In this document: positions 5,290-47,918 of the stretch, one piece after another
Layout of the letters: each line of letters starts with the position of its first letter
Numbering within the stretch: the stretch's first letter is position 1
Assembly: GCA_051362555.1 (NCBI GenBank)
Contig: CM120643.1
Location: 9,114,001-9,178,000 of the forward strand
Direction: 5' to 3'
DNA: 64,000 bases
From: Lingula anatina
Lineage: Eukaryota > Animalia > Brachiopoda
Made by a program: the position numbers and the translations under genes
The notes under the pieces: generated by a model
The model's input: the letters and a program-made list of their open reading frames with translations, nothing else
Databases searched by the model: none
What the model was told of the DNA's origin: nothing

Positions 5290-8200
5290 TCATCCGAATA
5301 TTTCCCAATTAGTGCTGATGCAGCTATGATCCGGTATTTCATTAATATCGATAAGAGTCTCAAATGCAGGTTGATCCACTTTGGACATTTTTACCTGTAA
5401 GGAAAAAAAATTAACACGTATATACGTAATTTTGGGAATTAAATAGGTCGGAAAACACACCATTGGCGGGAATGACGGAGCGAAGTTAGCTTTCAGCTGA
5501 AAATCGATTCTGATCAAAGTTTAAGCTCAGCATTAGGTCAGGTTAAAAAAAACAATTTAAGTTGAAAAATTGTTGAGAAAAGTTTTTTTCAACTGATTCC
5601 AGTCAGCCGCGCCGAAGACCAAATGGAGCACAAAATGGCAGGCGTACCTAGGTCGGCGGTGAGACTTTGCCCTAATTTTTTTATAGAGATTGCCTCTGAG
5701 TAGATGTATAATGAACTTTTTGGTCCAAAATAGGCAACACCAGAACAAACATCTCAAGGATAGTTACACAACCCCGCTGTAAGACATGGGGAGGTGCCCA
5801 AGTGGACGGTACCCAAGGGAAAACATCGTTGCTGCTCGTGACTCATTAATATTCATGTGATTAAGACGGCCTGACAGCCGTGGACATATTGGTTTGGACG
5901 AGTTTTACTTCTAACATAAACTTTTACTGCTTTTCATAGCAGTATGGAATAGTATGCATACTTTTCACTGCTTGCCACATACATGTACGTCATTTTCCGA
6001 AAAAAAAACAACCTCACATGCATTCTTGCTGTTGACAACCTTTAACTGTACCCTGTAGAACTCGTTGAAAAAAACAATAAGGTGCTTCTCTATTTAAACA
6101 TAGAAACCCAGTCATTCTCACCTCCTCAACCTTTCTGAACACCCTAAGGAAGTTTTTCCCGGCCAGTTTTTCCAGCTCTTCCTCACTCCAACCACGTGAC
6201 ATCAACTCGTAGAGAATGTTGGGGAATTTCGAGACGTCTTCTAGACCAACAGGATACCTGTGAACACAATACGTATTATGAAACGGTACGTTTGCATTTG
6301 TATTATAAGTGTTGTTCAGACAAAATAAAAAATAGAAATACATGTACATGTACTGTGATTTTTCTGAGGGCGGGAATAAATTACGGGACTGATATTTTCT
6401 TATTTAAATCAAGGAATATTTATGAAAATAAAATATTTCTCTTTAACCTTCTTGTTTAAATACACATAATTCTAATGGTAAAGAAAATATTTCTTATTCA
6501 AATGATACATTAAACAAAGTTAGCCCATAGCGCGTTAATTGGTTTCGGTATTTTCCTCGTGCGTACAATTTCTATTGGTACACTTTGTATTAGCATATTT
6601 TCTCACCTGTCTATTCCATCAAAGTCGCTGCCTAGTCCAACGTGATCAACGCCGGTTATATTGCGTATGTGCTCTATGTGATCTGAAGTATACAATAGTA
6701 TACAATAAGGAAAACGCTCACTGAATTTGACAGAAGTGGTTAATGATATACAGCAGTGTTTTTTCTTACAATTTCGTCTAATTTGGATAATAATAATAAT
6801 AATAATAATTCTGAATTGCGGTTTCAGGTTACAAAGCGGGACTGAAACTTAATTTAATTGAAATAATTGAAGCATTTACAATTTGGTAGTAATGATCATA
6901 GTTTGACATTACAACATAAATATTTTGTATTTGTCTCCTGTCGAGCGACCAAAGCCGTATCTTAATTGTGACACTAGGTCATTTTAAGATATATAGCACT
7001 TACCTATGACTTGGTTGATATCCGCGGGTCTCCAGTCCTGTTCCCCTGTGTATGTGTTTTCAGCAGAACAGTTTATAAAATCATTGTAGAAGTTAACCAT
7101 GACTATGCCGCCGTTTTCTTTCTGTAGAACAAAAAGAACAATACTGCTACCCTCTGTAGGTTGTTAAAACTACAAGACTCCGATATTTAATCTAAATTGT
7201 GTACAAATACATGTAAACTGATCAAAACCATAAATGGAGTACGGACGCTACTTTAAGCACAAGAAAATGCCTCTACTCAGATTAACCAAGTATATTTATG
7301 TTCAAAGAGCAATATGACATTGAAGAATAAGCACTTTATTCAAGGTCTGTCTCAAATGTTTCCTTCTCGCTTCCTTTTAGATAAATCCGAGTCTTTTAAT
7401 TAAGAAATTATCAATTATGAAACTATTAAAAACGTGTGATGAATACCTATCTACATGCATATATTCATAAGTTTACTAAATCAAAGCTGCTGGTTTTTCA
7501 AAGAGACCTATAGTTTTACATACCACTCGTACGAGCACGTCATCCGGGACATTTCTGACATGAGGACAAAGCGCGAAAGCAGATGAGTGGCTGAAGATGA
7601 CCGGTGCTTCAGACACGTTCAGGGCCGCATGCATAGTGTCCACGGCCACGTGCGACAGGTCTACCATCATTCCTAAGCGATTCATCTCCTTCACGACGAT
7701 CTAGAAAAAAAGAAAACAAGAATCACATACTTTTTAAAATAAATATTGTTCATTTTGAGTGATACAGCGCCGCTTATAACCTCCGAGATCAAAATCGCCA
7801 AGGGCAAAATTATCCGTTATAAAGAGGTTCCCATTGGGGGGGGGGGGGGGGGTAGTGGGGGGGGGGGGTAGTGATCACAGTTCACGGGAAATAAAATCAT
7901 CAATTCACAAATCACACTAAATTTAACTTTCTTTCAGATTTCACTGATAATGTGGGTCAAAAATTATGAAATTTACGAATACATCCGAATACACTGACTT
8001 CGTTTCACAAAGGGCAAAGAATAAAAAACCGTATTCACGAGACACGGGAATAAGGTGCTTCACAGATCACACTAAATAATATGAACGTTCGTGCATCTCG
8101 GTAATAAAAAGTGGCCTTCGCGGGTCACGAAATACGCAATGGGACCTTCTATAAAGAATAGACAGGTCTTTATTCTGTTATTTTAAATTTAAAAAGAGAG

Positions 8201-10993
8201 GGCATTCGAATGACGATTTCCTACCCCTCTGTATCAGCCACTGCCTTACCTTGCCGAAGTCCGTCAGACCGTGGTGGACAGGCTTTCGTTGCCTGGTAGC
8301 GACGTTGCAGTCAGCCCTGAAAATGACGTCACAATAAACGGCATTCTGTTTTTGAATTCTAAATAAAAATTTGAGTTGTACACTGTCGTGTTATGTTCTG
8401 AAATTCATATACATATAGGCCTATATATACTCAGTTTCAGCAAATATAGCTCACGGGCTGTGACAGCAAGTGACCACATCTCACACCTCTACCAGGGTCA
8501 CAGATTGACTTTGCACAAATTATTCACAAATAATGTCTTCAGATAAATCAGTTGAATCTCTGTGGAAAATGTGCAGAGGGTATCACACTAGTCTGAAATA
8601 GGCCTACGTCCAGGTTGACTGTAAGCTAAAATTGTGAAAGATTTTCAGCTTGTGCTAGACAATTTTCATTATTTTTATAATAATAATAATAATAATAATA
8701 ATAAGAAGAAGAATAATAATAATAACAGCTCACCACGGTGTATTACAGTTCCAGGTGAGGGTCATATAACGCTGTAATATTATTATTTTTATTATTATTA
8801 TTATTACTCACCACGGTGTATTACAGTTCCAGGTGAGGGTCATATAACGCTGTAATATTATTATTTTTATTATTATTATTATTACTCACCACGGTGTATT
8901 ACAGTTCCAGGTGAGGGTCATATAACGCTGTAATATTATTATTTTTATTATTACTCACCACGGTGTATTACAGTTCCAGGTGAGGGTCATATAACGCTGT
9001 ATTAATATTATTATTATTATTATTATTATTACTCACCACGGTGTATTACAGTTCCAGGTGAGGGTCATATAACGCTGTAATATTATTATTTTTATTATTA
9101 TTATTTTTATTATTACTCACCACGGTGTATTACAGTTCCAGGTGAGGGTCATATAACGCTGTAATATTATTATTATTATTATTATTATTACTCACCACGG
9201 TGTATTACAGTTCCAGGTGAGGGTCATATAACGCTGTAATATTATTATTATTATTATTATTATTACTCACCACGGTGTATTACAGTTCCAGGTGAGGGTC
9301 ATATAACGCTGTATTAATATTATTATTATTATTATTATTATTACTCACCACGGTGTATTACAGTTCCAGGTGAGGGTCATATAACGCTGTAATATTATTA
9401 TTTTTATTATTACTCACCACGGTGTATTACAGTTCCAGGTGAGGGTCATATAACGCTGTAATATTATTATTTTTATTATTATTATTATTATTATTACTCA
9501 CCACGGTGTATTACAGTTCCAGGTGAGGGTCATATAACGCTGTAATATTATTATTATTATTATTATTATTACTCACCACGGTGTATTACAGTTCCAGGTG
9601 AGGGTCATATAACGCTGTAATATTATTATTTTTATTATTATTATTTTTATTATTACTCACCACGGTGTATTACAGTTCCAGGTGAGGGTCATATAACGCT
9701 GTAATATTATTATTATTATTATTATTATTACTCACCACGGTGTATTACAGTTCCAGGTGAGGGTCATATAACGCTGTAATATTATTATTATTATTATTAT
9801 TATTACTCACCACGGTGTATTACAGTTCCAGGTGAGGGTCATATAACGCTGTATTAATATTATTATTATTATTATTATTATTACTCACCACGGTGTATTA
9901 CAGTTCCAGGTGAGGGTCATATAACGCTGTAATATTATTATTTTTATTATTATTATTATTATTATTACTCACCACGGTGTATTACAGTTCCAGGTGAGGG
10001 TCATATAACGCTGTAATATTATTATTTTTATTATTATTATTATTATTACTCACCACGGTGCATTACAGTTCCAGGTGAGGGTCATATAACGCTGTAATAT
10101 TATTATTTTTATTATTATTATTATTATTATTATTACTCACCACGGTGTATTACAGTTCCAGGTGAGGGTCATATAACGCTGTAATATTATTATTTTTATT
10201 ATTATTATTATTATTACTCACCACGGTGCATTACAGTTCCAGGTGAGGGTCATATAACGCTGTAATATTATTATTTTTATTATTATTATTATTATTATTA
10301 CTCACCACGGTGTATTACAGTTCCAGGTGAGGGTCATATAACGCTGTAATATTATTATTTTTATTATTATTATTACTCACCACGGTGCATTACAGTTCCA
10401 GGTGAGGGTCATATAACGCTGTAATATTATTATTTTTATTATTATTATTATTATTATTACTCACCACGGTGTATTACAGTTCCAGGTGAGGGTCATATAA
10501 CGCTGTAATATTATTATTTTTATTATTATTATTATTATTACTCACCACGGTGCATTACAGTTCCAGGTGAGGGTCATATAACGCTGTAATATTATTATTT
10601 TTATTATTATTATTATTATTATTACTCACCACGGTGTATTACAGTTCCAGGTGAGGGTCATATAACGCTGTAATATTATTATTATTATTATTATTATTAT
10701 TACTCACCACGGTGTATTACAGTTCCAGGTGAGGGTCATATAACGCTGTAATATTATTATTTTTATTATTATTATTATTATTATTACTCACCACGGTGTA
10801 TTACAGTTCCAGGTGAGGGTCATATAACGCTGTATTAATATTATTATTATTATTATTATTATTACTCACCACGGTGTATTACAGTTCCAGGTGAGGGTCA
10901 TATAACGCTGTAATATTATTATTTTTATTATTATTATTATTATTATTACTCACCACGGTGTATTACAGTTCCAGGTGAGGGTCATATAACGCT

Positions 10994-11033
<40 letters not shown>

Positions 11034-11999
11034 TCACCACGGTGCATTACAGTTCCAGGTGAGGGTCATATAACGCTGTATTAATATTATTATTATTATT
11101 ATTATTATTACTCACCACGGTGTATTACAGTTCCAGGTGAGGGTCATATAACGCTGTAATATTATTATTTTTATTATTATTATTATTATTATTACTCACC
11201 ACGGTGTATTACAGTTCCAGGTGAGGGTCATATAACGCTGTATTAATATTATTATTATTATTATTATTATTACTCACCACGGTGTATTACAGTTCCAGGT
11301 GAGGGTCATATAACGCTGTATTAATATTATTATTATTATTATTATTATTACTCACCACGGTGTATTACAGTTCCAGGTAAGGGTCATATAACGCACTCCC
11401 AGTTCATAGAACATCCTCAGTACCCCCAGACTACTCCTGATGTGATGGCCGCCCTCCACAGCCAGGAGACTGGCCACTTTACCGCCCCTATGGGCAGATT
11501 CAATACCTGAAATTATATTTACCATTTTAGTTAAAGGGATAACAACTGTTCGTATGATATTTCAAAATAAATACGCTGTAAACAACTCATGGAAATATTA
11601 TGAATTCTGTTTTACCTCCAAAACCGCAGTTAGCGCAATTATTTTAGACTGTGCTTGCCATCACATCACATGACCTCCATAGATGGTTACACTCTGCAAT
11701 AATATCTTCAGGGAACATTACAAAAAAAAATTAAGAAAAAAACATAGACTAACTATGAATGTCGGAATGGAATAATTAACCATTGGTTGGTATGGGAAAA
11801 TGTCCTTTTTTCCAGAAAATCTATTTTTGTCAAAAGTTGATATATTTATCCCTTTTAAGCATGCAGACGAAACCGAGAGTTTGCGTGTAGTGTGCGTGCA
11901 TGTGTGTGCATGTGTGTGTGTTGGGTGTGTGTGTGTGCGTGCGTGTGTGTTATTCCATTTGGTTTTATAGGTTTTTATTCGAAATGTAAATTCTGATAA

Positions 12000-12043
<44 letters not shown>

Positions 12044-14180
12044 CCATCTGCTGTGGTGACAAATTCAAACACATCAGAATACTGCGCAATCATTCGTTTA
12101 ATGAGGTCCAACTGCTCCAGGGCTTTCACTGTGGCGTCCTTGAACTGGGATTCACACGACGCAAATGACACCCAAAACTAAGGGGAAAACTGACAAGTTA
12201 ATGAAGCCATGGCAACAAACTTGTTTTTATTGCCTCCTTGATCTAAGCTGATGTAAAAACTAGGATATGCCACAAGGATAAGCGCCTCATTAATTGCAGC
12301 AGGTGCGACATCACGCCTGCAGTTTGCATGTGGATCAGATAACATTCCTTAATGTATTAAGAACATTAATTCACATATATGCTTTGTACGTGTGTGCGTG
12401 TGATCTAGCAGGAACTTATAAGTTGGAGAAAACAGATGGTACATTTAACACAGAAAATATCATTAATGCTACTATTGATGAGTTAAATGAATATAATGCA
12501 TTTCACTAAAAAAGGAAACAGAAAACGTTTATCTACTTCACCTGTGCGCCAAGGCGTCCCTTCTTTATTCTGGGTATGTCTGTTTGACTGGGATGGAACT
12601 TCGCCCTATATCTCAGCACCTTTCTCAAGTCTTGGCTCATATTTAAGCGTGCCAAGCTTCCATTGATAGCGGTGTCTAGCCGTATATGCCACGGGAAATC
12701 ATTATGACTGAAACAGTACATATACAATTCAAAATCATTGATTGAAAAAGCGTTCAGGACGCGTGCGGAAATGAGTGATCTTTTTTTCACTGGCAGGTCC
12801 ATTTTCAGACAAGGGAGGTTCGCTCATTTCGCTCGGTATACATGTATTTGCATGCATGAAATATCAGACAAGGGCAAAATCACTATATAATCTAGGAACG
12901 TGGATGGAATATTTGGTTGATTTTTCTTGATTTGCTGGTTATACTTTTTTGAGAAATAGATGTACTGTCGAAGCAGGGGAGAGAGGGGGATTGCGCGGAG
13001 GCTGTGCGCCCTCTGCCAACGATTTGTGAGACGCAAACAATCATTTAAACCCAATTGTAACCGACAGCATATGATCTTAAAACGTTGCCACATGTAACTC
13101 AGATAATTCTAGACGACGAGGCATTTAGTGATTTTGAACAAACAAACACGGTCAAACACGCACACCCACTCACAGAAAATGCAACATATGTAATTGAAAG
13201 GAGACGATCCAATCAGATAGTATTTGAATGAAATTATATAAAGTTTTCACACCCCGTGCCGGCTGATATTACAATATCAAACAAAAATACAAGGTCACGT
13301 AGGCGTACGTCAGACCGATTTGTTCCAGTAACTTTTTGCAATCAAACAATTTAAAGTCACTGACCCAATCCCCTCTAGAACCAGCTATCAATTACCCATC
13401 AACTAGTGGCACTCTATCCAGTATATCATTGACCGTCTGCATGCGAGCCTCTCTCGTGGTCCGAGTAGGCACCAGAGTCACTGCCAGAGAGACAGAAATA
13501 ACTATAACCAGAATAACTGAAAGAGAAAATGTGCCAGAATTAGAGAAAACGCAGAGATAAATTAACGATCCAACGTATTTCACATGCAGGCGGTTGTAAT
13601 CTTTGTTTGAAATCCTTTAAATTCAAAAACCTTTACGTCTGTATGAATAGAAACATTTGATCATATATACAGTATATAAAGGTATGAAACGAGTAATCAG
13701 CTTTTTATTCGACAAAGGTTTTCCATCTGCGACATTGATACAAAGAGGTGTCATATAAAAACAAATGATTTATGATAAGAATATAGCTTTATGAAGAAAA
13801 ACATTTTCGGCCTGCTCTTTTATCTATGATCACAGACTGTTCCAATTATACAGGAAAATTGACGTCGGTGACAATTTTTGCTGATTTGGTGAACGAGTTT
13901 TTTTAATGCATTAAACCTCCATTACATTTGCCACCGCCGCCGTGAGATGAAATTCTCATACAGATTGCTGAGCCATTTTTTGACATCGTAAATGGCCTCC
14001 GCATAGAGGCAGTACGAAAAGAGATTGACGGAAAGTAGGCCTATACATGTAAGGTTATAGCATGGCAAATGTAATGTAATGTAGGCTTAAGAAAACACAA
14101 TTACCTGCCACAACCAAGGCGACCTGAATCTTTCTGTTGAGCACTCTAGGTTTCTTCTGTTTGTCGTACTTTTCATACAT
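5290..14180 (-). CDS. DPEP: membrane (renal-type) dipeptidase, peptidase family M19, with type II N-terminal anchor
   Basis: 11 in-frame exons (plus coordinates, in transcript order): 14105-14180, 13396-13516, 12542-12707, 12045-12177, 11356-11506, 8250-8316, 7524-7700, 7004-7121, 6607-6682, 6122-6257, 5290-5394, all GT-AG. Motifs: [114 protein letters not shown]. The metal ligands are intact. Confidence 0.95.
7824..8149. mobile_element. MITE in dipeptidase intron
   Basis: TIR gaggttcccattg / caatgggaccttc, flanked by TATAAA on both sides (6-bp duplication); internal cacgg(g)aataa subrepeats. Confidence 0.65.
8728..11394 (-). repeat. tandem array of 34 units (33 extra copies plus the true exon end): 38-nt dipeptidase exon end + GTGAG donor + (TAA)n spacer
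   Basis: Constant core ctcaccacggtgtattacagttccaggtgagggtcatataacgc (reverse complement encodes [13 protein letters not shown]|gtgag), separated by variable tattattatt tracts; unit about 69-87 bp. Confidence 0.95.
11535..11853. mobile_element. Kolobok-like MITE (TTAA target), copy 1
   Basis: ttaa|agggataacaactgttcgt ... atttatccct|(t)ttaa; similar termini and internal sequence to 33145-33483. Confidence 0.6.
11886..12039. repeat. (TG)n and (GA)n microsatellites
   Basis: tgtgtg runs at ~11890-11950 and an agagag run at 12003-12039. Confidence 0.9.
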
Positions 14181-15904: not shown

Positions 15905-18900
15905 TACAGTGTACACTTGTATGAAGCAGTCAAATGGAGATTGATCGCAGGTTGAAAGAGACTATACGCAAACTTTTCTTCTATACAATTAAATAGAAAT
16001 CTTTAATCTGGTTGTCTAAATATGATATCTTCCTTCAGTTTTTCTCAATCTGGCTAAAGTCAAATAGACCAAGTTGTCAAAAAATAAATGAATAAACATA
16101 TTTCTCATTAAAAATCTTCAAGCAATTGAATTAAAAGCCTCGCGAGATAAAAATTGACTTCTCTTTCATACTCATCCATACAGTCTTTTAACAGAGGAAT
16201 GCTATTTTTTTGGTATTCTATTCTAAGCGTTCATTATAAACCTCATATGCCACAGTTAAATTGTGTATGACATTGTAGGGCCACAATTATCTTTACAAAC
16301 CTGCCCAATTCGCGTTGAATTGCTCAAAGCGGAATATAAATATATTGATCGAAGTGTCTTGCTCTGTGTGTAAAAAAATGCGACTGATATAAATTTCGAC
16401 TGGAATATCAACAAAGTCTTCTGTCTGTTTTTCAGCTTTCATAAAAAATTATTTAGAATGTAACAGCATACATTTTGAGACTAATAATATCCAATGAAAC
16501 TCCTTTGGGTAAGGGCGTAATAAACTTTTAAAAGAAAGTTTACTTTGTGCATGAACCCTTCACCTTTAATCAAGATAATATCAGATTCCATAATATGAAT
16601 AGTGTCTATCTTGAGGCAAGATAGCACGTTTAAAAATGGTTAATTTCGTATGGGTAATCAAATCAATTACTTAACATAGGAAAAGGCTCCTAAGTCTAAA
16701 ACAGTTAAAAGTTCTACACTAGTAGTTCGATCATGGGCTCGAACCAGGCTTTAGAAACCCCTATATTCAGTAATCAAGTACAATTTTTGTAGCTATGTCG
16801 GATTCAAGTGAAATCGGTGAGATGCTTAAATCCCCCCCGAGGTACTCGTATAGTTCTGCGTTTGCATACTCAAAACCCTAATAGGCCCCAGAGGAGCATG
16901 CGCACAAACTTCTCGTCTGCGTTTTTCCATGAAATGATTCAATTACAGACGCATTGGAAGACGATACACGTAAACTGAGTCACTGCATATAGCGACAAAA
17001 ACATGTATCCTTACCGGGCTTAAAGGCACGCTTGTAACCGTCTGGTCCTCTAAACATCTGTGTCCCACTATCAACGCTGAGGTGGAAGTGTGATTAGTGC
17101 TTCTATCTGCCGGTCCTCAGAAAGTGAAGGATGATCCCGCAGCGTCTGAGAACGTCCCTCTTTCCAGTGTTGGCTTAAAGAGCCGACGATCGATGTGCAG
17201 TTGGACGATAGCAGAAGTGAGACAGTTATGCAGCTCCGCCAGATGTAACAACTTTGTGTGGTAATCGATTTACTGCGGAGTGTCATTTGGGGGCAAGGCT
17301 GCGCAGGTTTGACCTAGCTGCGACCGTGTTTACTTTATAAGCAGGTACATTCGTGTACTGTGCACAAATGAACGGTTTTTGTGCTGTCAAAAACAGGACG
17401 AGTTCAACGCAGTAGACTGAGGTGCGATAAAGAACCGCGGAGCCCGCATCAATAGTGGGATCGTAAAAGAAAGACTGTAATAAAGGGATCGTGAAGGGCC
17501 CGTTAAAACCAAATGGTATCGCAAGAGCATTTTGCTTTTTAAGCTGACTGAAACGAAAGTTTGGAATTTGTATGAGACTGTATATTTATTGATTCTCTTG
17601 TTTCCCCGTGGATTAACAGCAAAAGCCTGCATCTTTTGGTAAAAAGCAATTACATCCTGATTCATAGGAATTTTCCGCTTTCTATAAAGGTAAGTCAGCA
17701 GTCAACGTCTCCAGAATAAAAAAAAATGCGTTTATGAGTTTGAAAAATTCGCTGTAAACAATAAATATTACAACTGTAAACTAGTAATGGATTTAGACTG
17801 AAAATAAATGAATAATTATTAAATCAGTCCAATTTATACTTCGCCCCATATGAGCCCCAGTCGGGTGTACCATAAGGATACAGGTTCACTTTTGAGAAAA
17901 TGAAAGTAAAAAAGAATGTCTTTACCTATATAATGAGAGATATTAGAGGGCTACTGGTGATACTGGAAATGTTTTCTTAAAGAATGTATATTGGACAATA
18001 TCATTATGTACAGTATACCATACATCGGTATAATATAATAATATAATACTGTGTGTGCTTATATATTTCCAAGTGAAAATCAGCTAAATATGCCACAGAT
18101 CTACCTTTGCGATATTCTCCTGCCGACAAAATGGATCCTTAATTGCCGTGTTTTTTTTTTTAATTAAAAGATATAACAATAGAAGCTTAATTGTTAGTTT
18201 ATATATCCAAAATCGAGAAAGAAAGAATCATCCAAGAGGCATCACCGTGTCGCATACCTATAAATGTTGTGAAATTATCAGTTATATTTCATTTAAAAAT
18301 AGCCATGTTCAAAACTTATTTGAACCTGAAATACATGCCTCGTGTAAAAAGTTCCACAGAGACGGGTAGGATTGTGGTTCATGAAGAAAGTAAAATTTCC
18401 TGATGATTTTATTCTTAACAAGGTAAAAAGCATATTCATGTTTGTATTTATTTTGTATACATGTTTTCTTACGTGAATATCTGTACTAGCACAGTTCACA
18501 CCACTATTGGTGAAGGTGTGGCATCGCTCAGGATGTTACTTTCTCCACAAGTACAGTTGCAGATATATGGCTGATAAAATTGTAGGTAGGGGTCCTCCTT
18601 TACTCACTACAGCAGGCTTCTCTAACTGGTTCAAAATCCTTTGACGGACAATTTTGTAACAGGTAAAAAAGACTCCAGAAGAGAATAAGTCAGCCTCTCG
18701 TACTGTCTAACCCCAAAATGTGTTTTAATTCAACCAAAGCCATTTATGAAATCTTGAAATAAAACTGGTTTTTTATTCTCAATTTAAGGTTTTAATAATT
18801 CTACAATGGGTCATAATTTGAAGGTTGTAATTTATGTCTAATTTTATTTTTTATTAATTGCAATATGATTGTAACTTTAATGGGTTAGATGTTGGTAAAT

Positions 18901-20827
18901 TTAAACCGAACGATGGTATTTCATTGTCCTGATGACATGTATCCGTACAATGTAAGTGTTGTGGCTTTTATTCACGTAGAAAATTGAATAATATTAGGCC
19001 ACTGTGTGTTTAAAAAATCAATTGGCGATCACGCGATGTGACTCTTAAACATAAGGTAATTAATTTGTAATCTCGTGATTATTCTTCCAAGGTATGAGCT
19101 ACTCCCACTCTTTCAGTTATACATGTAGTCATAGATTTATCATAAGTTTTAAGTTATATTGAGTAGTGGCACCAGCTGTTTTATTTTTCATTCTCATATA
19201 CAGGTATAATGTCTATTTTCATTAATCATATAATATAGTCAGTAAGAATATCTCTTCGTCTACCAATTAGGGATATTAATTCACCATGATTTTCACAGAG
19301 CTTACACTCTAAATTATCGGAATCTGTTGAAAACCCAGAGAATATATCATTGTTTCACTTTCAAGTGTCAACAGCCCCTACATAGTTTAGTTTCTATAAC
19401 AGTGATAGAAATACAACGTAACGCGTTGTTACTGACTTGCTGTATCGATTGACCTGAAAACTAATGGTGCTTTATATTGTCATATTAACTCCCGCGTCGG
19501 CTCCTTTTCTACATGAGTTAAGCACGTGCACATTGCTTGAATCAGATGGACTCATTTCTGTCCTGTTTTTTTTAATAGGTGGACTGGTTGTTAATATTTA
19601 CTTGATAGCACTGAAATATCAATAATTGTGAACTCTTTACCTACATTTGTACATGGCCCTATGCATATTACAGACTGTTTACGTGAGTGCTATTTTATTT
19701 GTCATATTGGCTCAATTCATTTAATTTGTTTTTACTGAACCATCTCATTGTGCTTCTTTTCAGTTTCAATTTCTTTTTTTGCATATTTTATAGCTTCCAA
19801 AGACCTGATAGATACTAATAACTGTTAATGGGAGCAATAACTTAAATTGCTTCAATTTTTATTCAAAAAAATTCAATAGAACTGTACAGTTAGTGTTAAC
19901 TGTGTATGAACATATACGGGATAAATAACAATCAGACCTTTTCCATAAAATCTGGTAAACAAATTAAAGCATTTCTTAAATTGAACTTAGAAACTTCTGG
20001 CATCTCTTCATTATAATGTTGTTGCAAGAGTGAGTTGTGCTACCTTGTGATGAAATCAGACAATACGTGTAGAGTACGTAACCTAGTGATGCTGGCGACA
20101 CGCATATTGAATTTCGCAGCAAGTTGTATCTAAATCATGGAATTGAGAGACCATCCCAATGCAGTGCCAACATGTTTTTTTTTTATACAAACGTAAAGCA
20201 GTTCAAAGCAGTGCGGGACAACCACCCAGTTCTCCATATTTTATACCAAAATGAGGAACCAAGAAGGGAAAGCGTCTTCTGTTATATAATTGTTAAGGAG
20301 CTATTAAAACATCCAAAACGATATGTCACCAGGATGTCACTTCGTGTTTTTGCTTAATTTAAAAATCATGGGGTTCACTTGTCAATTATTATGCAAAACT
20401 GATTTCTGTTAAGGCTAAGCCTTTAGTATTTTTGATTAATCTGTATTGTTGTAGCCCGAACCACTTGTCTCTAGTTGCTGAGGCCTGCTACCGCTTCCAG
20501 CTAACTTGAAATGGTGGCATTAGCTTTAATTTAGTGAAGGTCTCCCACCCGATTCTAATTATTCAGCTGTGTTCATTTGTTGATAGAATCATATGCTCTT
20601 TAATCATAAAATACTTGGCAAGGTTGAAAGAACTGCTGCGGAGCGCGCGCATGCGTGTGTGTCTTGTAGTCCATCAATTTGTCTGCAATCCGTCCGGTGT
20701 GCTTGCCTCATCATTCAGGACATCCTTTAAAACAAAGAAAGAATGAATCCATGCAATAGCCTGCTTTCCGCTGTTTTAAAACCCCAAAGGACTTTTGTTT
20801 GAAAATAGCATATGCTTTATATTACAG

Positions 20828-20933
20828 TGCGCCCTTCTATTAGCCTCACCACAACAGGAATACATGCAGTCTGTGCTTTTCCATGGTGCCGTCGAATCAC
20901 ATTCTGGTCCAATGGCAGGCGTAGAACAAAAAG
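20828..20933 (+). CDS. probable upstream exon of the NB-ARC/WD40 gene
   Basis: ttacag| ... aaag|gtgggt; open frame (CALLLASPQQEYMQSVLFHGAVESHSGPMAGVEQK) ending in phase 1, which matches the phase-1 acceptor at 22020; ATGs at 20864 and 20912. Confidence 0.45.
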
Positions 20934-21369
20934 GTGGGTGCACATAAAAAACAAATGCACAATTGCATGTTAGTTACAGTATCATTTCAACAAAATTATT
21001 GAATTTACCGATACCATGTCTTCCCTAGACCCTGGAATATATATATGTATACCGGTATGTACTAATTTAATACTGCTTAATTTATTTTCTCATTTGCTTT
21101 TGCTAAACTGCATTTTTTATTTTTAATAATCCTCAACGACAATTAACGCAACGCACAACATCCAACATCAATTTATTTCCAATTGCAATGAGTCGATTTG
21201 TTTTTAACTGCGAACAGTTATTTCGACCTTCTGTACGCCTGGATCAGAATTATTAGTTTTGTTCACGTTTGTCTCATTTTAATATTCTGGTACACACATC
21301 GTACTTTAATCGAATTCATTTTGCGATTGTATTGTTTACGCTATTAAAACAAACGCAAATTGCGTCTAA

Positions 21370-21432
21370 AGACAAGTGATTTGTATCAGGCATTAAGTGG
21401 ATAACTGAATGCCTGATATAAATCATTTGTCT
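21370..21432 (+). other. ~63-nt near-perfect hairpin (pre-miRNA-like or mini-MITE)
   Basis: agacaagtgatttgtatcaggcattaagt-ggata-actgaatgcctgatataaatcatttgtct; ~29-bp stem with two G:U pairs on the + strand and one mismatch. Confidence 0.6.
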
Positions 21433-22019
21433 GTACCGTAAGGCTCGTTTCTCCTTCTCACGTGATCTGTGAACTCAGGATGTTGACCCCCATGGTGTAT
21501 TTGATGCCCTAACTCTTGGATTATGCATTTAAACTTCCCCTAATGCTCTCAAAGTGATGTCTATTTGTCGAGAAAAATATGTTGTTATTTTTGGCTATAT
21601 ACTCTAGTTCCATATATGAAAATAAATCTACAAATTCTTTCGTGCGTTTATATTTTTGTTCAGTATACTTTCACGTGACCCCCTCTTACTTTACGTCATC
21701 GTTGTCCTATTAAACGACAATGGCAATAAGTATATCGATACATAATGCACTAATATTTGCTAAACATGCTTTAAAATAGTCGCTTAATGCAACGAATTAG
21801 AGATTTTGTAAATATGTTCAATTTTCTTTCGAAATTCGATCGGCACAGCTTGCTCATGATCAACTGTTGTTATGTGCCCATGCAATGTGTAATGTTGTGA
21901 TCGAATGTCACTGTTTGTAAATGTCACTATCCATGAGACTACAATACGCAGACCTTCGGCATACATACATACATTAATAAACATTCATACAGATATACAT
22001 ACTAGTATTTTCATTTCAG

Positions 22020-25000
22020 AGTATCCATGCCATGGCATTAACCATATGCCGACGGGTTATGTCGCCCGTGACGACCCAGAGAAGAAGGTGCTAGAGATTC
22101 TCGAGAGAGAGAAATCCGTTGGTATTGTGTCCTCCCAAGGTATTCACGGTCCAGGAGGTGTCGGTAAAACGTACCTAGCCCAGGCTGTGGCCTGGAAAAT
22201 GCGCGGCAAAATGGAGGTAGTCTTTGTGGAAGTCGGCACAAACCCCAACATGCTCAGCATAATGAATAGTTCTTTTTACCCTTATCTTGAAAATGGCACT
22301 AAGGGCAATTTCACCGAATTGGAAGATGTTTGGATATGGTTAAGTAAGATTACAAAAAAGAAGAAAGTTCTCATTGTTTTAGATGACGTCTGGTCGGAAA
22401 AAACGACCATTCAGATTCTATGGCAGATGAGAGAGGCCCTATCTGACGGAAGTCAACTTCTATATACAACACGCACGAAAGATCTCTTGCTTAAAGTCAA
22501 AGCGACACCTTATGAGCTAGGGGTGGTTCCTGAAGCGGAGAGATGGGACTTCTTTGTGAACTGCGCGGCCTTGAATTTAGAAGATGAACAAGTAAAAGCC
22601 AACAAAGAACAAATAGGCAAAGCAATTATAGAAAACACAGACGGACTACCTATTATCTTAGACAACTATGCACAGCACCTAAAACAGGGTACAGAGGGGG
22701 TTAGTTTCCAACATCTGCTGAACCAAATTAAAGATGAAGTGACAGGAAGTGAACAGTGGTTAGAGCGTAGTTTCCATGCGTTGAAACCCAGTACAAATTT
22801 CATAGATTGCGATGTGCTCTCATTGCCAAAGTCGAATGATCTTAACCGCGTGCAGCAGTTGTTCTTGTGTCTCGGGGTCTTCAAGGACGATGAGCGTTTT
22901 CGATCATCAGTGCTGGAAACAATATATAAATTATCTGACGAAATCAACGCAAGCGAAGAGGATATCAAGAAAATTGTACACGAAGATCTAAACATCCTCG
23001 CCAATCACTCATTGATCAAATTCATACATGAGCAGAATGGTGATCTGATATACACCATGCACGACATTGTGCGAGAATATGCGTTGAAGAAGGGGGAACA
23101 TACCTTTAGGTACAAGGAATCAGGCCGGTATGAAAGAGAGTTGCACAAGCTGCTGCTTATGGCATTCAGGGCGAAGCTTAATACTGAAGAGGATATCAAG
23201 CATGCGCCATGGTTTGAGACGGATACGAGTCAAAGCTATTTCTATGAAAATGCGGTATACCACTTCCACAAAGCCGGGTTTTCTCATGTCTATATGTCCT
23301 TGCTTACGAACTACGAATGGCTTAGACAAAAACTTCAGGTCTCGCCTGTGGCAAGCATTCTGTCTGACTTCACCATCGTGTCAAAGCATGCGGCAGAAGA
23401 AAGCATCCTTTTTCGGACTTTGTACGACTGTATGAACTTATCCAAAGATGCTTTGGCCATCGATTGTGACCAGCTGGCTTTCCATTTACTAAGTAGGCTA
23501 AAGGGCCACCCATCCCCAGATGTGGAAGAATTCATCAAGCAAATTCCACAAAATCACATGCCTATACTCCCCTTATCATCGTGTTTAGTGCCACCTGGTG
23601 GTGGTAGAAAAGAAGCCTTGAAACACCCGGGTACCGTATTGGGAATGGCCGTGCCAAACGACGGGAGCTGCCTTTACACGGGCTGCAATGATGGGTTTTT
23701 AAGGGTGTACAACTTTGAATCCGGTATCAAACGAAATGTTGGGAGAAGCAAGCATCAGCATTCGCGTTCTGTTTGGGCTGTGGGAGTTGATGCTAATAAT
23801 AGATACCTGGTAACGGCATCGTTAGACCATACTGTTAAAGTCTGGTCAAATCAAGTCACTGATGACCAGGAAAACGCTGAACCATCTTTAAGAAAGCACG
23901 AAGATCAGGTTTACTCATTGGCAATGTTTCCGGATGGCAAACGCTTCGTTACAGGATCCGCAGATGCAACAATTAAGTTCTGGCGGATAAATGACCCAAG
24001 TGAAGATGGGGCTCCCATAACAAAACACCGAGGCACAGTTCGTGGTTTGTGTATATCGCCGGACGGCAAGAAGTTGATATCTGCTTCCGAAGATGGCACG
24101 GTGTGCGTTTGGGATTGCCAGAAACGAACTAAGTATCGTCAATTTAAACGCCCCCTAGTGAACGGAAATGTCGCCGCTAAAGCCCTATGTGTATGTGTTT
24201 CTCGACCAACCGGTGCTTCAATAATCTCTGGTTATGAGGACGGAATAGCGTGCGTGTGGCATGTGGAGAAGAATACATGTCGAGAGACTACGCGGGAACA
24301 TATCAATGAAATATTTGCTGTTGCCTCAAGGTTTTATGAGGATGAAGAAGGAGAGAAGTCGGTTTTCTTTACCGCTGGAGATGACTGGAAAATCCTTATG
24401 TGGGACATAAAGAGCCTGCAAGTTTTAGCAACTGTCCGTGGTCACAGCGGCAGAATACGCACCATCCTCATAACCCCTGACGACAAGTTCATGATTACCT
24501 CGTCAGAGGACCAACATGCCATCAGGTGGGATCTCAGTAAAATTCAGGCAACAACATCAGCCCCACGAGAACAACACCAGCTATATGTAAGCTCCGTTGC
24601 TGTCTCAGATGATGGGAAGGTGGCGGTTACGGGTTCCTTCGATGGAACTCTAAAACTGTGGGATCCAGTGACTGGCAATTTTCAGATGAATTTGGGGAGT
24701 CCTCATGAGGGCAAAGTCACAAAGGTCCTTATTGATGACGATGCCAAGCAACAAGGCCAACTCTTGGTTGTGTCAGCATCAGCAGATCGAAGCATTAAGC
24801 TGTGGCTGGTATGTTTAGAGCAGGAGAGACCTGTCGTTAATTTGCACAGGCACCACCAGCTGAAAGGCCACAAGTTTGCCGTCATGGACGCGTGCTTCAC
24901 CGCAGACAGGGGGCACATCATCTCGGGATCCTCGGGAGGAGAGATACTGAAATGGAACCTAGGTGATGGGACTCACGTTGGAATTGTCATTAGCCCTGCA

Positions 25001-26647
25001 TTTTGTATCAGGAAGGTTCAGCTGAATGGAGAGAACGAAAGGAAGCTTTTGGTCGCAATGTATGAAACAGTTGCGTGCATCGACACTCAAAGAGCATTCG
25101 ATTCCCTGCAAGCATGCCAACCAGGCGAATGTAACCACGCTGATCTGCGACCGGATGCGATGATCACAGCGCCTAGGAAAGCCAGCGTTCCTGTTTGTTC
25201 GTGGGAGAAGGGGTTCTATTTTCCACTATTAGAGAATGGCAAAGTGGCCACTGTCAATACTGACAACCACATTGAATGTTTTGGTGATACCGCCCACGGT
25301 AACGCACATCGGTTTTTAGTTACTGCTATGAAAAAGATAACCCATGAGGAAAAAGATTATTTCCTCTCTGGGACGGACAGTGGCGACATTCTTCTTTTGA
25401 AAAGAGAGGAAATGGCGTCAGCGCCTGTTGCTATGTCCAAACCAAAGGTGGATGGTATCGAAATTGAAGCCAAAGTCACGTCTCTTTCTTGGTGCGGACG
25501 CACCCTAATCTCTGCCCCGGTGTGTTGTGCGGGTTTTCAAAGTGGTGATGTCTGCATATGGCAAGACATAAGCATAAACGAAATGTCTATAAGTCCTAAA
25601 AGACGTAGCATTCAAGAGAGCATCACAGCTCGTCTTGTCAACAGCTTCGGGAATGAGGCTAATGTCTTGGTGGAGATTGTTCGACATGGAAATCAACAGC
25701 GCCAAGAAGGTGAATCCATAGCTGTGCTGTCGGTGTACATCCCGCTCGACACTGGTGCTGAACCTCACCTCATGATCCACAGTGTGTCCCTAAATACGCC
25801 TGGACAACCGCGGCAATTAAAAAGTGTTATTTTACATGACCATATACCCACATGTTTGCTGCAGTTACCTGGATCCAGGATTGTGGTCGGCAGCAGTGCC
25901 AGCACTTTTTTCATTTATGAATTTCATAAACTTGAACTGCAAAACCCACTAGAAATTTCTACAACTCACCGTAATGGCGTTCGCTCGATGGCAACGTTGG
26001 ATGACAGTGAACCCTACGGGTGTATATTAGCCACGGCAGGTTTTGATAACCTTATTATAATTTGGGACAGGGAGACGTTGTTACAGTTAAAGATTATTAC
26101 AGTTGATGACTTTGTGTCACCAAGGGAATTTGCCTTTTGCAACAATCACTTGACAGCACCGCGAGCTTTCTACGATTGTTACAATTTTGTCGATTTTGCC
26201 GTGGACATAGAAGCCGAGCATCCGACAGCCAAATGTACGAACAATATGTTTGGTATCAAACAAGACTTTTCACCAGTTATGGCCTTGACAGTAAATGGCT
26301 CCCGGGTTATATCGGAAGATATAAAACTCGGATTGAAGGCATGGGATGCTCAGACAGGTGAAGAGTGGTTTACTGTTCAGGACAAAAAAGTCAAACACAA
26401 AAAGAACTTGACGAGCATCGTCAACATGACTGACGACACCTTTGTGACAAGTTCGTACGACACTACCCTTAAACTCTGGAAGACGGACACTGATGCTGAA
26501 GGGGAGTGCAGGGCCGTTCTGTTAAAACAGGTACATCTTGACCATGCAGCTACTTCCATGTCCTTTTGCAAGACCACCAGCACCCTTGTTCTGGGATTGC
26601 ATAGCGGAGAGGTAGCTTTCGTCCATGTCGCACCTGAGGTAATTTAA
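22020..26647 (+). CDS. APAF-1-like STAND protein: NB-ARC + helical domain + WD40 propellers, in one giant exon
   Basis: ORF 21905-26647 with a likely acceptor tttcatttcag|22020. Walker A GIHGPGGVGKT, Walker B LIVLDDVW, sensor-1 YTTR, GLP and MHDIV motifs, helical domain LTNYEWLRQKL, and many WD repeats (SLDHTVKVW, SADATIKFW, SEDGTVCVWD, SFDGTLKLWD, SYDTTLKLW). Confidence 0.93.
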
Positions 26648-26763
26648 CTGCAGCCAATTGCAGAGATGTGACAAAGGGGTTAATGTCTTCGAAAAGTAAT
26701 TTTTGTGAAACGGGGTAAATTGTTGTTGGAAATACTACGTATTTTTCCACTATAAAACATATA

Positions 26764-28423
26764 CAGGGTTGCTACTTAATATGGAATATTTTTATCATTG
26801 TTATTTTTGAGTGCTGATTGAATTTTTTTTTGGCTTGAATCATTAAAAAAGTATGTCACTGAGTGATAATAACATCCAGTCTTCTGTTGTGAGATATTTT
26901 GGTCAATAATATCAAATCTGACATTAGGTGCCATTCAAAAGAAAGGAACACCCCCAGAAAACCATATCAACAGTTTGATGTCAGTATAAACTTTAAGATA
27001 AGATATTAAAGAAAATGATAGCCTCCGGACAGTGATATGTTACACAGACAAAGAACTCACTACAGTAAATCATGAAAAGTCAGTAATTGCGAGTATGACC
27101 TCCAGCAGCCGCTTGCAGCGCCCTCATCCCACATGGCATACCCTGTGACACGTTTTTTAGAGTTTTGGTGGGGATTTCATTCCACACAGTGATATTTGCC
27201 TATCGCAGTTTATCACTATTTACCGGCCGAGGACCCTGGCTATTAATTCTGTGAGTTACATCCGCCCACAGATTTGCAATTGGGTTCATATCTGGACAGT
27301 TTGCAGGCCAGGGCAGTTGCTGAACACATTGGTTTTGAAGAAAAACAGTGATTCTGAGGCCTCGATGTGGGGTTGCGCAGTCGTCTCGGTACACAAAGTT
27401 GTTCCTGAAGATGACTCTTACCAATCGAAGCATTGTTTGCTGTATAATGTCTCTGTAGGAATCCTGGATGAGGTTGCCTCCTAGAAAAACCAACTGGTTC
27501 TGGGCACCGACATGAAATGCTCCCGAAACAGAGACGTTACCATCCCCTGCTTGCACCCTAGGCAGTACACAATCATTGTTTTATGCCCCTCGTACACGTC
27601 CGTGGACACGGATTCGATGATCAACCCTAAAAAATCCATATCTGGCCCCATCACTGAAAACGACGTGATTCCAGTGTTTTGGCTGCAAAAGCACGTGGTC
27701 CCCAGCCCATTGCAGACGTTGCTGTATATGACCTGCTGTTAACAGTGGTTTCTCTACTGGCCTTCGTGCAAAATAACCGGCTTGCAGAAATATCTTGTTC
27801 ACGTGGGACCTTGAAACGGGCGTTTGAAAGACATTCTGCCTCTCTTTTCTGAGGACACTGGTTGTCTTTGTACGACCAGCACGGCGTCCTCTAAGGAGAT
27901 GGCGATCCTGTCTTCTTGGTGTGATACGCGGATACCCTGGTCGAGGTATTGGAGTAGGTGTCCCTGTTGCAGCATTTCTTTGGAGGACATCACAAACGGT
28001 TCCTGATAAATGTTGAATTACCTGGCAATGGCTGTCCGTTTCTGGACATTTTCTCTGAGAGCAAGAATCCCATAGTAAGCTGCGTTGCTTAGCTGTCGAA
28101 TCATATCTTCATTAAGGTACCTGTCAAGTTTCAGAGCGATCCCTTTGTTGCTTCTCTAAACACACCTCAAAGATTGACCAAACCCATGGGTTTTTATACA
28201 ATGGCAGAAATTGCCGAAAAGACCACCCCTCACATTTCTGACCACAGAACATGCAACTGCATGCACCAATTGTTTCGAGAGTTGTGTGGTAATGAGGTAA
28301 CACACCTGGCTACGCATGGAGTAACACCTCAGCTTTGGATTTAAAGTAGTTAGAGAGAAATTAAATATTTTGTAGAAAATTTACTCGCCAAAAAAGAATA
28401 TTCCATATTTAGTGGTAACCCTG
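26764..28423 (-). mobile_element. Tc1-family transposon, decayed (1,660 bp)
   Basis: TA|cagggttgctacttaatatggaatatt ... aatattccatatttagtggtaaccctg|TA; frameshifted transposase pieces ARRPVEKPLLT, HWNHVVFSDG, YRDDCATPH, WPANCPDMNPIANLW (DD34E spacing, E mutated to A). Confidence 0.92.
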
Positions 28424-47000: not shown

Positions 47001-47918
47001 TTCCCAGACCCGATCGTACTATCTGTGGATCGATCTATCTCCGATGGGTTTCTCGTTCAATTGCTTTCAGCTGAAGTGGCTTAGATGTCTGTCTCACCTA
47101 CTGAATTTGCTAGAGGGTAATTACTTATCGCTTAGCAGCTTCAGTAAGTGTGTCAGACATCGAAGCCGTTGAAACTGAAAGCAATTTAGCGAAAAAAATG
47201 GATTGAAAAGATGGATTGATCCTGTTAAATCGATCTAGGTATGGGAACCCAGTCTTACAAACTCACCGATATAGACAGAAGTGCTGATGTCTCCGGCTAC
47301 ACCTATCGATTGGGCAAGTTTCTCCAGCCTCGCGCTTAGGAAAGTAAATGAGGCGTAGATACAAAAAAATATGACCGAATACAATATTGTAGCTTTGACT
47401 TGGTTTTTACGTCGTTTGGATAACCGTTGTGAGTACAAAAAATTTGTTGCTTCACTCTCCTTAATGTCTTCATCTTTATGCATTGGGCTCACTCTGTGAA
47501 AAAATGGGTCGCTTGTGGTCTCGAAACCGGTAAAACGAATTTTGGAAGTCTCTCCTTGCGAGATACTATGTTTTGTCGGTCCTTCATCACTCTCGGAATA
47601 ACTTTCACTGGTTGAATCCGTGGCGTTTGTCTGGTAATACGTGCTATTGATCGACCGGCTGTTTTGCCCCATTGAAGATATGCACCAACTTTCAAGAACC
47701 GACGAGGTATCGTCACCTTCCCAAACAGAGCTGCGGTCATTTGCATACATGGAAGCTTCCGCTGTGTTTTTAGCTTTGGAGCTTAATTGGCTGCTGTTGG
47801 TCGACGTCTTTTTCTGCTTTGCATTTGATGTCTTGCTTGAACTTAAGTCAAAGCGATGATTTCGATCACTTGTTATTCTCATATTTTCTGACGACGGGCA
47901 ATGCAGTTGTGGATCCAT
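40632..47918 (-). CDS. SLC15/POT (PTR2) family oligopeptide transporter-like protein, paralog A
   Basis: 10 in-frame exons: 47267-47918, 46472-46570, 46215-46255, 45537-45685, 44911-45107, 44411-44622 (GC donor), 43762-43951, 41833-41988, 41139-41270, 40632-40771. Motifs FGGVLSDGVFGNY, ISVYYQLPQWILAAVGEI, AELVCLETPRGVQAVLLGLGW. Confidence 0.88.
41004..41050. repeat. (CA)n microsatellite
   Basis: Pure acacac run. Confidence 0.95.
42040..43426 (-). mobile_element. Tc1-family (DD34E) transposon, decayed, in intron 7 of SLC15 paralog A
   Basis: TA|cacacactggacaatagaagtgtcacccc ... ggggtgacacttctattgtccagtgtgtg|TA; HTH piece (LNCSVRTVQGVWSRYRNTG...GCPRKTT), IFSDECRF, MVWGCI, HQDDNAPCH-(34 aa)-ENVW, LYQSLPRRL; contains a stop and frameshifts. 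Confidence 0.95.
45235..45411. mobile_element. MITE / inverted repeat element
   Basis: acgtatgttacggct ... agccgtaacatacgt inverted pair, with internal inverted segments. Confidence 0.6.
46995..47258. mobile_element. MITE family, copy 1 (homologous to 52407-52668)
   Basis: ccattcccagacc...tgtggatcgatcta...agcagcttcagta...gatcctgtta.atcgatct.ggtatgggaa...gtcttac shared by both copies; imperfectly palindromic. Confidence 0.75.

What the first reader, a model, noticed from the sequence alone, without database searches (positions are those of the whole stretch)
8728..11394. Array of 33 duplicated exon ends forming potential poison micro-exons or decoy donors inside the dipeptidase gene
Seen: on the coding (-) strand each unit reads tacag|CGTTATATGACCCTCACCTGGAACTGTAATACACCGTG|gtgag. 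That is the last 38 nt of the real exon ([13 protein letters not shown]) with its donor and a newly created CAG acceptor, separated by about 30-50 nt of mostly (TAA)n. Every alternative use is non-productive: inclusion after the true exon gives TGC GTT ATA TGA (C-V-I-stop), read-through to a later donor gives TGG TGA, and splicing from the previous exon meets TAA. The rest of the gene is intact. Inference: 33 strong donors next to the true one could act as a copy-number rheostat for unproductive splicing/NMD or as a U1 snRNP sink, or they may be silent because the spacers have no pyrimidine tract.
Basis: partly seen in the sequence, partly recalled or inferred. Interest (0 to 1): 0.8.

Follow-up and report, generated by a model that had tools for sequence, protein, structure and literature searches.

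The report
Splice-donor mirage with inverted birth scar
In a lamp-shell (Lingula) dipeptidase gene, the end of one exon and its splice signal are repeated 33 extra times in the next intron; this repeat type is already known from lancelets and humans, and here it likely differs in length between animals, likely began with one DNA-copying slip that flipped the intron's first bases, and is likely harmless rather than a switch.

Summary
The array is real. The last 38 nt of exon 5 plus GTGAG occur 34 times (1 true, 33 copies; units 69-87 nt) in an intact 441-codon M19 dipeptidase gene of Lingula. All 7 simulated alternative uses hit an early stop. Short-read contigs of two samples hold the core up to the same breakpoint, at about 24x and 1.6-2.9x flank depth: no assembly artefact, and likely a VNTR. 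It is a splice-junction 'mirage' minisatellite like lancelet Adh3/globins and human F7, LMNB2, PDGF, CBS and 6-16, where only the first donor, or the first three, are used. The scan already noted many in this genome and others. What this locus adds: each spacer resembles the reverse complement of the intron start behind the last copy, so the 'new CAG' is likely a flipped CTG left by one template-switch or repair event. Spacers of 31-49 nt likely crowd out the acceptors; weak pyrimidine tracts alone do not explain silence. RNA could not test donor use: the repeat was masked and depth was about 10 reads. A rheostat or U1 sink is unsupported.

The parts
5290..14180 (-). Membrane dipeptidase (M19, DPEP1-like) gene, 11 coding exons, 441 aa, hydrophobic N-terminal stretch predicted to anchor it
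   Evidence: Exons 14180-14105, 13516-13396, 12707-12542, 12177-12045, 11506-11356, 8316-8250, 7700-7524, 7121-7004, 6682-6607, 6257-6122, 5394-5290 give an open frame; Pfam PF01244 on 4 of 5 exons scanned, 3 above the curated cut-off; 390 of 401 residues equal Lingula anatina XP_013391152.1 and 197 of 198 equal XP_013401014.2
11356..11506 (-). True exon 5 (151 nt); its last 38 nt are the repeated core
   Evidence: about 10 RNA reads of run X11 lie on its 3' part
11350..11358 (-). First (most upstream) donor, GTG|GTGAGT, likely the one used
   Evidence: sequence; use inferred from frame, from the database model and from precedent
8729..11394 (-). Minisatellite of 33.6 units: 38-nt exon end + GTGAG + (TAA)n spacer ending TACAG
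11316..11355 (-). First spacer (40 nt): GTGAG followed by an inverted copy of the intron-start microsatellite
11393..11394 (-). Left breakpoint of the duplicated segment; GC is shared by the exon and by the inverted template (2-nt microhomology)
   Evidence: sequence; the C-allele contigs of X1 and X3 both end at 11394
8734..8771 (-). Last copy of the exon end, followed by the weaker donor GTGAGC, inferred to be the ancestral exon/intron junction
   Evidence: ancestry inferred from the inverted match, not shown in a second haplotype
8677..8733 (-). Intron start GTGAG-CTG-(TTA)n with CTT interruptions, inferred template of the inverted spacer
8250..8316 (-). Exon 6 (67 nt), partner acceptor of intron 5
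   Evidence: spliced to exon 7 in one X7 contig and 4 X12 reads

Best explanation
This is a splice-junction ('mirage') minisatellite that copies the end of exon 5 and its donor 33 times into intron 5; it likely varies in copy number between animals, likely began with one template-switch or repair event that inserted a flipped copy of the intron's first bases, and is likely tolerated because splicing would use the first donor. Shown: the anatomy, the intact gene, and the same breakpoint in short-read contigs of two samples. Inferred birth: synthesis stopped after GTGAG, copied about 35-45 nt of the CTG-(TTA)n intron start from the opposite strand, then re-annealed about 44 nt upstream at a shared GC. 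That duplicated the exon end, turned CTG into CAG, and left a better U1 match (GTGAGT) first and the old donor (GTGAGC) last. Inferred growth: slippage in the (TAA)n spacers and unequal exchange between units. Inferred silence: the most upstream donor wins, as shown for human F7, and each CAG lies only 31-49 nt behind a donor, likely too close to assemble a spliceosome; any leak would meet an early stop and likely be degraded.
For: Anatomy and intact frame. Reverse complements of spacers align to the intron start, anchored at GCTG (4 of 5 best local alignments); for 3 of 3 spacers the reverse-complement score (52-68) beats forward (24-30) and plain-reverse (30-32) controls; the commonest spacer type breaks its repeat at the same register as the intron's first CTT; only 3 other (TAA/TTA)4+ tracts lie in 61,270 bases. 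One contig in X1 and one in X3 carry the copy-type C and end exactly at 11394, at depth 938.5 versus 39.8 flank and 91.1 versus 31.5-56.6 (ratios). In X11 the depth on the core (10) carries on into the exon-only part (8.9), so most reads of the core come from whole exon 5. The database model XP_013391152.1 has the normal exon 5-6 join. Precedent: F7, LMNB2 and PDGF use only the first donor, and an F7 pseudo-site changed to TGG/gtgagt did not compete (PMC1557585); lancelet mirages carry AG/GT signals, vary in length and do not disturb splicing (PMC3087553; PMC3902484). Human introns under 66 nt are rare (PMC4463651).
Against: Donor use was not observed: the exon end and the last unit were masked as repeat (11316-11360, 8662-8792), X11 gave about 10 reads, X14 none on exon 5, X12 none across the start of exon 6, and the RNA animals differ from the window's haplotype with unknown array length. 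The tool warns that contig depth is no copy number; a second database model and uneven depths near exon 6 (21-133 in X2) allow a paralogue that could add to X3's depth. Human 6-16 and CBS do use two extra donors. Unit acceptors score like weak real ones, human introns of 43 and 49 nt can be spliced and 15 of 33 spacers are 43 nt or longer; Lingula's minimum intron length is unknown to me. The inverted match lies in low-complexity sequence and needs a 1-nt gap next to GCTG; 8 nt at the spacer end also match the exon's own CTGTAATA in reverse. Template switches that return upstream of their start were not observed in human-chimp data (PMC5453318). A test for higher-order unit patterns was only borderline (p 0.06-0.14; the alternating A>G copies p 0.003, chosen after the fact).
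Confidence: 0.72

Rival explanations
1. Same minisatellite, but leaky: the second and third donors are used in a minor share of transcripts, which meet TGG-TGA at once and are removed by nonsense-mediated decay; a small unselected cost.
For: Human 6-16 and CBS arrays use two pseudo-donors besides the true one (PMC1557585 introduction); 32 copied donors equal the first; read-through gives an early stop.
Against: F7, LMNB2, PDGF and lancelet cases use the first site only; most X11 reads on the core continue into upstream exon 5, though this does not test read-through past the first donor.
Confidence: 0.18
2. A selected copy-number rheostat (poison micro-exons or a U1 sink) that tunes dipeptidase output.
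For: Every simulated alternative use is non-productive (7 of 7); each unit has both AG and GT; acceptor scores overlap weak real ones; copy number seems to vary about tenfold.
Against: Early stops come free from a 38-nt out-of-frame piece and a (TAA)n spacer; the CAG is explained as a by-product of inversion; 33 sites on one lowly covered transcript (about 10 reads in 1,766 million letters) are unlikely to drain U1 (inference); notes of this scan report such arrays as common in this genome (unchecked), which fits a mutational bias.
Confidence: 0.05
3. Different origin: the ancestral intron began GTGAG-(TAA)n-CAG, was duplicated in tandem, and the last spacer was later inverted in place; or the match to the intron start is a chance pairing of two microsatellites.
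For: Simple in-place inversion is the commonest short template-switch type in human-chimp data (45%), while return-upstream events were not observed (PMC5453318); the match is low-complexity.
Against: It needs two events whose breakpoints coincide at both ends of the spacer; chance is unlikely given 3 such tracts in 61,270 bases and the GCTG anchor.
Confidence: 0.15
4. Assembly artefact.
For: Long AT-rich tandem arrays can be mis-sized in assemblies; no raw long read was seen.
Against: The core contig of X1 is about 24 times deeper than its flank and ends at the unit breakpoint (X1 may be the window's own animal, so this supports reality, not independence); X3, from another study, shows the same breakpoint; 13 distinct unit types with recurring variants.
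Confidence: 0.02

Closest known systems
Lancelet 'mirage' minisatellites: Adh3, globins BflGb6 and BflGb9, troponin C, PGBD5 (PMC3087553, passages read; PMC3902484, passage read)
   Same: Tandem copies spanning an exon-intron boundary; many units with AG/GT signals; length differs between haplotypes; end units escape homogenisation; splicing reported undisturbed. BflGb9 duplicates an exon's 3' boundary, as here.
   Different: Brachiopod, 33 copies versus 3-6 in BflGb6; the unit here holds an inverted copy of the intron start. PMC3087553 calls the generating mechanism unclear; its supplementary alignments were not read, so inverted inserts there are not excluded.
Human exon-intron VNTRs: F7 IVS7 (37 bp, 5-9 copies), LMNB2 (100 bp, 10-15), PDGF intron 4 (81 bp, 16-18), CBS IVS13 (15-20), 6-16 (25 pseudo-sites) (PMC1557585: abstract, introduction and passages read)
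   Same: The donor is reiterated many times downstream of the true one; polymorphic length (F7); unit size and copy number like PDGF and 6-16.
   Different: F7 repeats only 4 exon bases, here 38; each unit here also has an AG in front; donor choice was shown by experiment there and is only inferred here.
Short-range template switching and templated insertions of alt-EJ / SD-MMEJ (PMC5453318, passages; PMC7407515, passages)
   Same: A nearby stretch copied in reverse complement, short microhomology at the return point, direct and inverted repeats created together.
   Different: Here the return point would lie upstream of the start, a class PMC5453318 did not observe in human-chimp data; end-joining with a templated insert is the alternative route; the founder junction was later amplified 33 times.
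Membrane (renal) dipeptidases, Pfam PF01244; human DPEP1 chain 1itq_A
   Same: Full-length match (E 1.5e-100 for P0005); motifs DGHND, EGGH, DLSH, FSHS, GSDFD present in the window's protein.
   Different: Trp in place of the residue counted as His152 in 1itq_A; hydrophobic N-terminal stretch and no hydrophobic C-terminal tail (read from the sequence).

Membership tests
Splice-junction ('mirage') minisatellite | Head-to-tail repeat whose first unit spans an exon-intron boundary | tested here: met
   34 copies, the first is the end of exon 5 with its donor
Splice-junction ('mirage') minisatellite | Splice signal reiterated in the units | tested here: met
   GTG|GTGAG in 33 of 33 copies; 32 continue GTGAGT like the first, the last GTGAGC
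Splice-junction ('mirage') minisatellite | Length varies between haplotypes | tested here: met
   Indirect only: core contig with the same breakpoint at about 24x flank depth in X1 and 1.6-2.9x in X3; contig depth is a rough proxy; no data on the core for X2
Splice-junction ('mirage') minisatellite | End units differ from homogenised inner units | tested here: met
   First unit alone has CTT, last alone has GTGAGC; C is also the letter in 10 of 10 X11 reads
Splice-junction ('mirage') minisatellite | Mature mRNA uses the authentic (first) site | tested here: inconclusive
   Junction masked in both lays, about 10 reads, array state of the RNA animals unknown; database model has the normal join
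Poison (NMD-coupled) cassette exon | Inclusion creates a stop well upstream of later exon junctions | tested here: met
   Stop at codon 219 of 442 with six exons downstream; true of most out-of-frame pieces
Poison (NMD-coupled) cassette exon | Inclusion seen in RNA, rising under NMD block | tested here: inconclusive
   None of the 10 joints listed touches exon 5 and one search lists none, but the decisive positions were masked; no run listed as NMD-blocked
Poison (NMD-coupled) cassette exon | Flanking introns of spliceable length with a working acceptor | tested here: inconclusive
   Spacers 31-49 nt versus 321-727 nt for the gene's other 9 introns; acceptor scores overlap weak real ones; Lingula minimum unknown
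Poison (NMD-coupled) cassette exon | Conserved between species | not testable with these tools
   No whole genome is held for the window and the genome collections hold no animals; within the species the array seems unstable
Membrane dipeptidase family M19 | PF01244 match with metal-ligand motifs | tested here: met
   the roles of the individual residues are recalled, not from a call
Membrane dipeptidase family M19 | His at the position of human DPEP1 His152 (substrate-binding role recalled; search gave no usable paper) | tested here: not met
   Trp in the window's exon, P0005, Pomacea P0015 and Littorina P0116; His in the other 9 of 13 rows. Does not remove it from the Pfam family, but activity is untested

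The most novel reading that the evidence does not exclude
A splice-donor array born in one flip-and-return copying event still segregates from about one extra unit to dozens, and its length dials down productive dipeptidase mRNA through later donors or poison micro-exons: a naturally graded allelic series for donor competition in an invertebrate.
Probability: 0.06. Interest if true: 0.6.

Novelty: new member of a known kind. Interest (0 to 1): 0.2.

Why it matters
As a regulatory device it most likely does not matter. Its modest value is mechanistic. PMC3087553 calls the way mirages arise unclear, and this locus keeps a readable founder junction: an inverted copy of the intron start between two direct copies of the exon end, possibly with short and long alleles still in the population. 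If an array-free and a one-unit haplotype confirm this, it would be a concrete birth route for these repeats, of a switch order that PMC5453318 did not observe in human-chimp data, and a natural series for testing first-donor preference outside mammals.

Tried and rejected
Whole-genome search: no genome is held for this window. Run search: no RNA holder listed; this says nothing on expression. Donor use: both lays masked the repeat edge, so what follows the first donor in RNA, and what follows GTGAG in other haplotypes, stays open; 105 loose ends and 584 pieces were not shown, and most of its reads came from a high-copy repeat in intron 4. The X7 contig ends one letter past the start of exon 6: uninformative. 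An ORF through the array: all three - strand frames stop within a unit (and reading), and no ORF of 120 aa or more overlaps it on either strand. 'No pyrimidine tract' as the reason for silence: rejected as insufficient. RNA structure as the reason: copied donors are predicted no more paired than the true donor (unpaired 0.14-0.28 versus 0.22; no shuffle control), so it does not single out the first donor. Higher-order repeat test: borderline. Other mirages in this window: a self-BLAST listed 14 other repeats; the one short tandem pair outside the long ORF (61268-61390) was not checked for splice sites. Paper searches: (CBS; intron gain; His152) gave listings only; PMC10078293 passages added nothing specific. 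Not seen in print for a brachiopod in the listings (11 of 11 listed; 12 of 22 listed); no supplements were read.

Full report
Observation. The - strand from 11393 to 8734 holds 34 copies of a 38-nt sequence followed by GTGAG. The first is the end of a real exon, the other 33 lie in the intron. Spacers are 31-49 nt, mostly (TAA)n, and all end in TACAG; there are 13 distinct unit types counting both ends. TRF gives one array at 8729-11394, score 4128. The true exon has CTT where the copies have CTC, five copies carry an A>G change, and the last copy is followed by GTGAGC and unique sequence.

The gene. Eleven exons from 14180 to 5290 join into a 441-aa frame with AG/GT at all 10 introns. Four of five exons scanned hit Pfam Peptidase_M19. 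Exon 7 is 100% identical to two Lingula anatina 'dipeptidase 1-like' records; the whole protein differs from XP_013391152.1 at 11 of 401 positions and from XP_013401014.2 at 1 of 198, so the animal is Lingula, and a second gene copy or a divergent allele exists. The array sits in intron 5 (3,039 nt; the other nine introns are 321-727 nt).

Is it real and variable? Of 21 runs listed, 7 were laid on the two flanks. In one search, DNA contigs of X1 and X3 each include one contig on 11361-11394 with the copy-type letter; it ends 16 letters from position 11379, that is at 11394, exactly where exon and spacer contexts diverge. Its depth is 938.5 in X1 against 39.8 for a flank contig, and 91.1 in X3 against 45.5-56.6 or 31.5-38.7: ratios of about 24 and 1.6-2.9. 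The tool warns that such depth is no copy number, X1 may be the window's own animal, and a paralogue could add to X3. Still, a tenfold contrast with a shared breakpoint is best read as a real array of variable length. A polymorphism at 11395 could also break the X3 contig there, but it would change a Val that the database model keeps.

How it likely arose. The intron behind the last copy starts GTGAG-CTG-(TTA)n with CTT interruptions. Reverse complements of spacers align to it starting at GCTG in 4 of 5 best local alignments, score about twice the forward and plain-reverse controls in 3 of 3 cases, and the commonest spacer type is interrupted at the register of the first CTT. Only three other (TAA/TTA)4+ tracts occur in 61,270 bases. 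The inverted template ends ...ACAGC and the exon reads ...GTGC-GTT, a shared GC. One event explains this: stop after GTGAG, copy the intron start backwards, return about 44 nt upstream. The CAG is then a flipped CTG, the last copy holds the old junction, and the first donor gained a T at +6 (7 versus 5 matches to an 11-nt U1 consensus; consensus recalled). This is inference. The match is low-complexity and needs a 1-nt gap, 8 nt also match the exon's own CTGTAATA in reverse, and PMC5453318 (passages) did not observe switches that return upstream in human-chimp data. End-joining with a templated insert makes such direct-plus-inverted scars (PMC7407515, passages). Duplication followed by an in-place inversion is the rival; it needs coinciding breakpoints. 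An earlier scan note on another gene judged an odd last copy to be decayed rather than ancestral (e1-9076731, unchecked); here the inverted match argues the other way, but no array-free haplotype was seen.

How it likely behaves. RNA did not settle it. X11 gave about 10 reads on the exon end, 10 of 10 with C at 11379 and with other differences from the window, so from other haplotypes of unknown array length; binned depth falls only from 10 to 8.9 across the breakpoint, so most of these reads come from whole exon 5. X14 had none on exon 5. The donor itself and the last unit were masked. X7 and X12 show exon 6 spliced to exon 7, so the gene is expressed. Geometry is the better argument: each AG is 31-49 nt behind a donor, while the early spliceosome covers 79-125 nt and human introns under 66 nt are rare, though 43- and 49-nt ones are spliced (PMC4463651, passages). 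Predicted folding does not single out the first donor.

Comparison. PMC1557585 (abstract, introduction, passages) describes this architecture in human F7, LMNB2, PDGF, CBS and 6-16: the first three use only the true donor, the last two also use two pseudo-donors, and in F7 minigenes a downstream TGG/gtgagt site did not compete. PMC3087553 (passages) and PMC3902484 (passage) describe lancelet mirages with AG/GT signals, variable length, odd end units and normal splicing. Four of five defining features are met here (one of them indirectly), and the fifth is inconclusive. I had the F7 precedent; the word 'mirage' and the lancelet papers came from earlier scan notes, which report many such arrays in this genome, and one search lists similar ones in other animals; I did not check those loci. 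I saw no brachiopod case in the listings; supplements were not read and may bear on whether inverted inserts are already described.

Verdict. A real, probably polymorphic mirage minisatellite: a new member of a known kind, most likely near-neutral (0.72), possibly slightly leaky (0.18), unlikely a selected rheostat or U1 sink (0.05). Interest 0.2, owed mainly to the legible inverted founder junction.

Noticed in passing
window 11368-11370 region of exon 5, - strand (TLTWNCN): The residue aligned to His152 of human DPEP1 (1itq_A) is Trp here and in Pomacea and Littorina homologues, His in the other 9 of 13 aligned rows. His152 is recalled as a substrate-binding residue, so this may mark a subfamily with changed specificity.
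   Followed up: partly
window 11530-11855: Intron 4 is mostly a dispersed repeat, 72% like 33140-33485, with summed contig depths of 18,000-36,000 in its peak bins in X1 and X3.
   Followed up: partly
window 21893-26647 +: Stop-free frame of 1,584 aa with NB-ARC (E 2e-21) and many WD40 repeats, an APAF1-like STAND architecture without introns in this stretch.
   Followed up: no
window 34734-39761 +: Stop-free acidic frame of 1,675 aa with no Pfam hit, coding repeats of 45 bp (36086-36269) and 171 bp (37556-38146), and a hydrophobic C-terminus that looks like a GPI signal (last point read by eye).
   Followed up: no
window 26761-28426 and 42035-43431: Two Tc1/mariner-like remnants with terminal inverted repeats of 33-34 bp and transposase frames in pieces.
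   Followed up: no
window 46989-47258 / 52400-52668 and 1399-1553 / 61047-61235: Two pairs of palindromic, MITE-like dispersed repeats.
   Followed up: no
P0005 and P0007 (database models); window 8065-8331: Two Lingula models on different scaffolds; the one closest to the window (P0007) starts only in exon 7. X2 contig depths near exon 6 run from 21 to 133. A second gene copy, or an assembly break near the array, could explain this; untested.
   Followed up: partly
window 61268-61390: A 64-bp tandem pair at about 80% identity; not checked for a splice junction.
   Followed up: no
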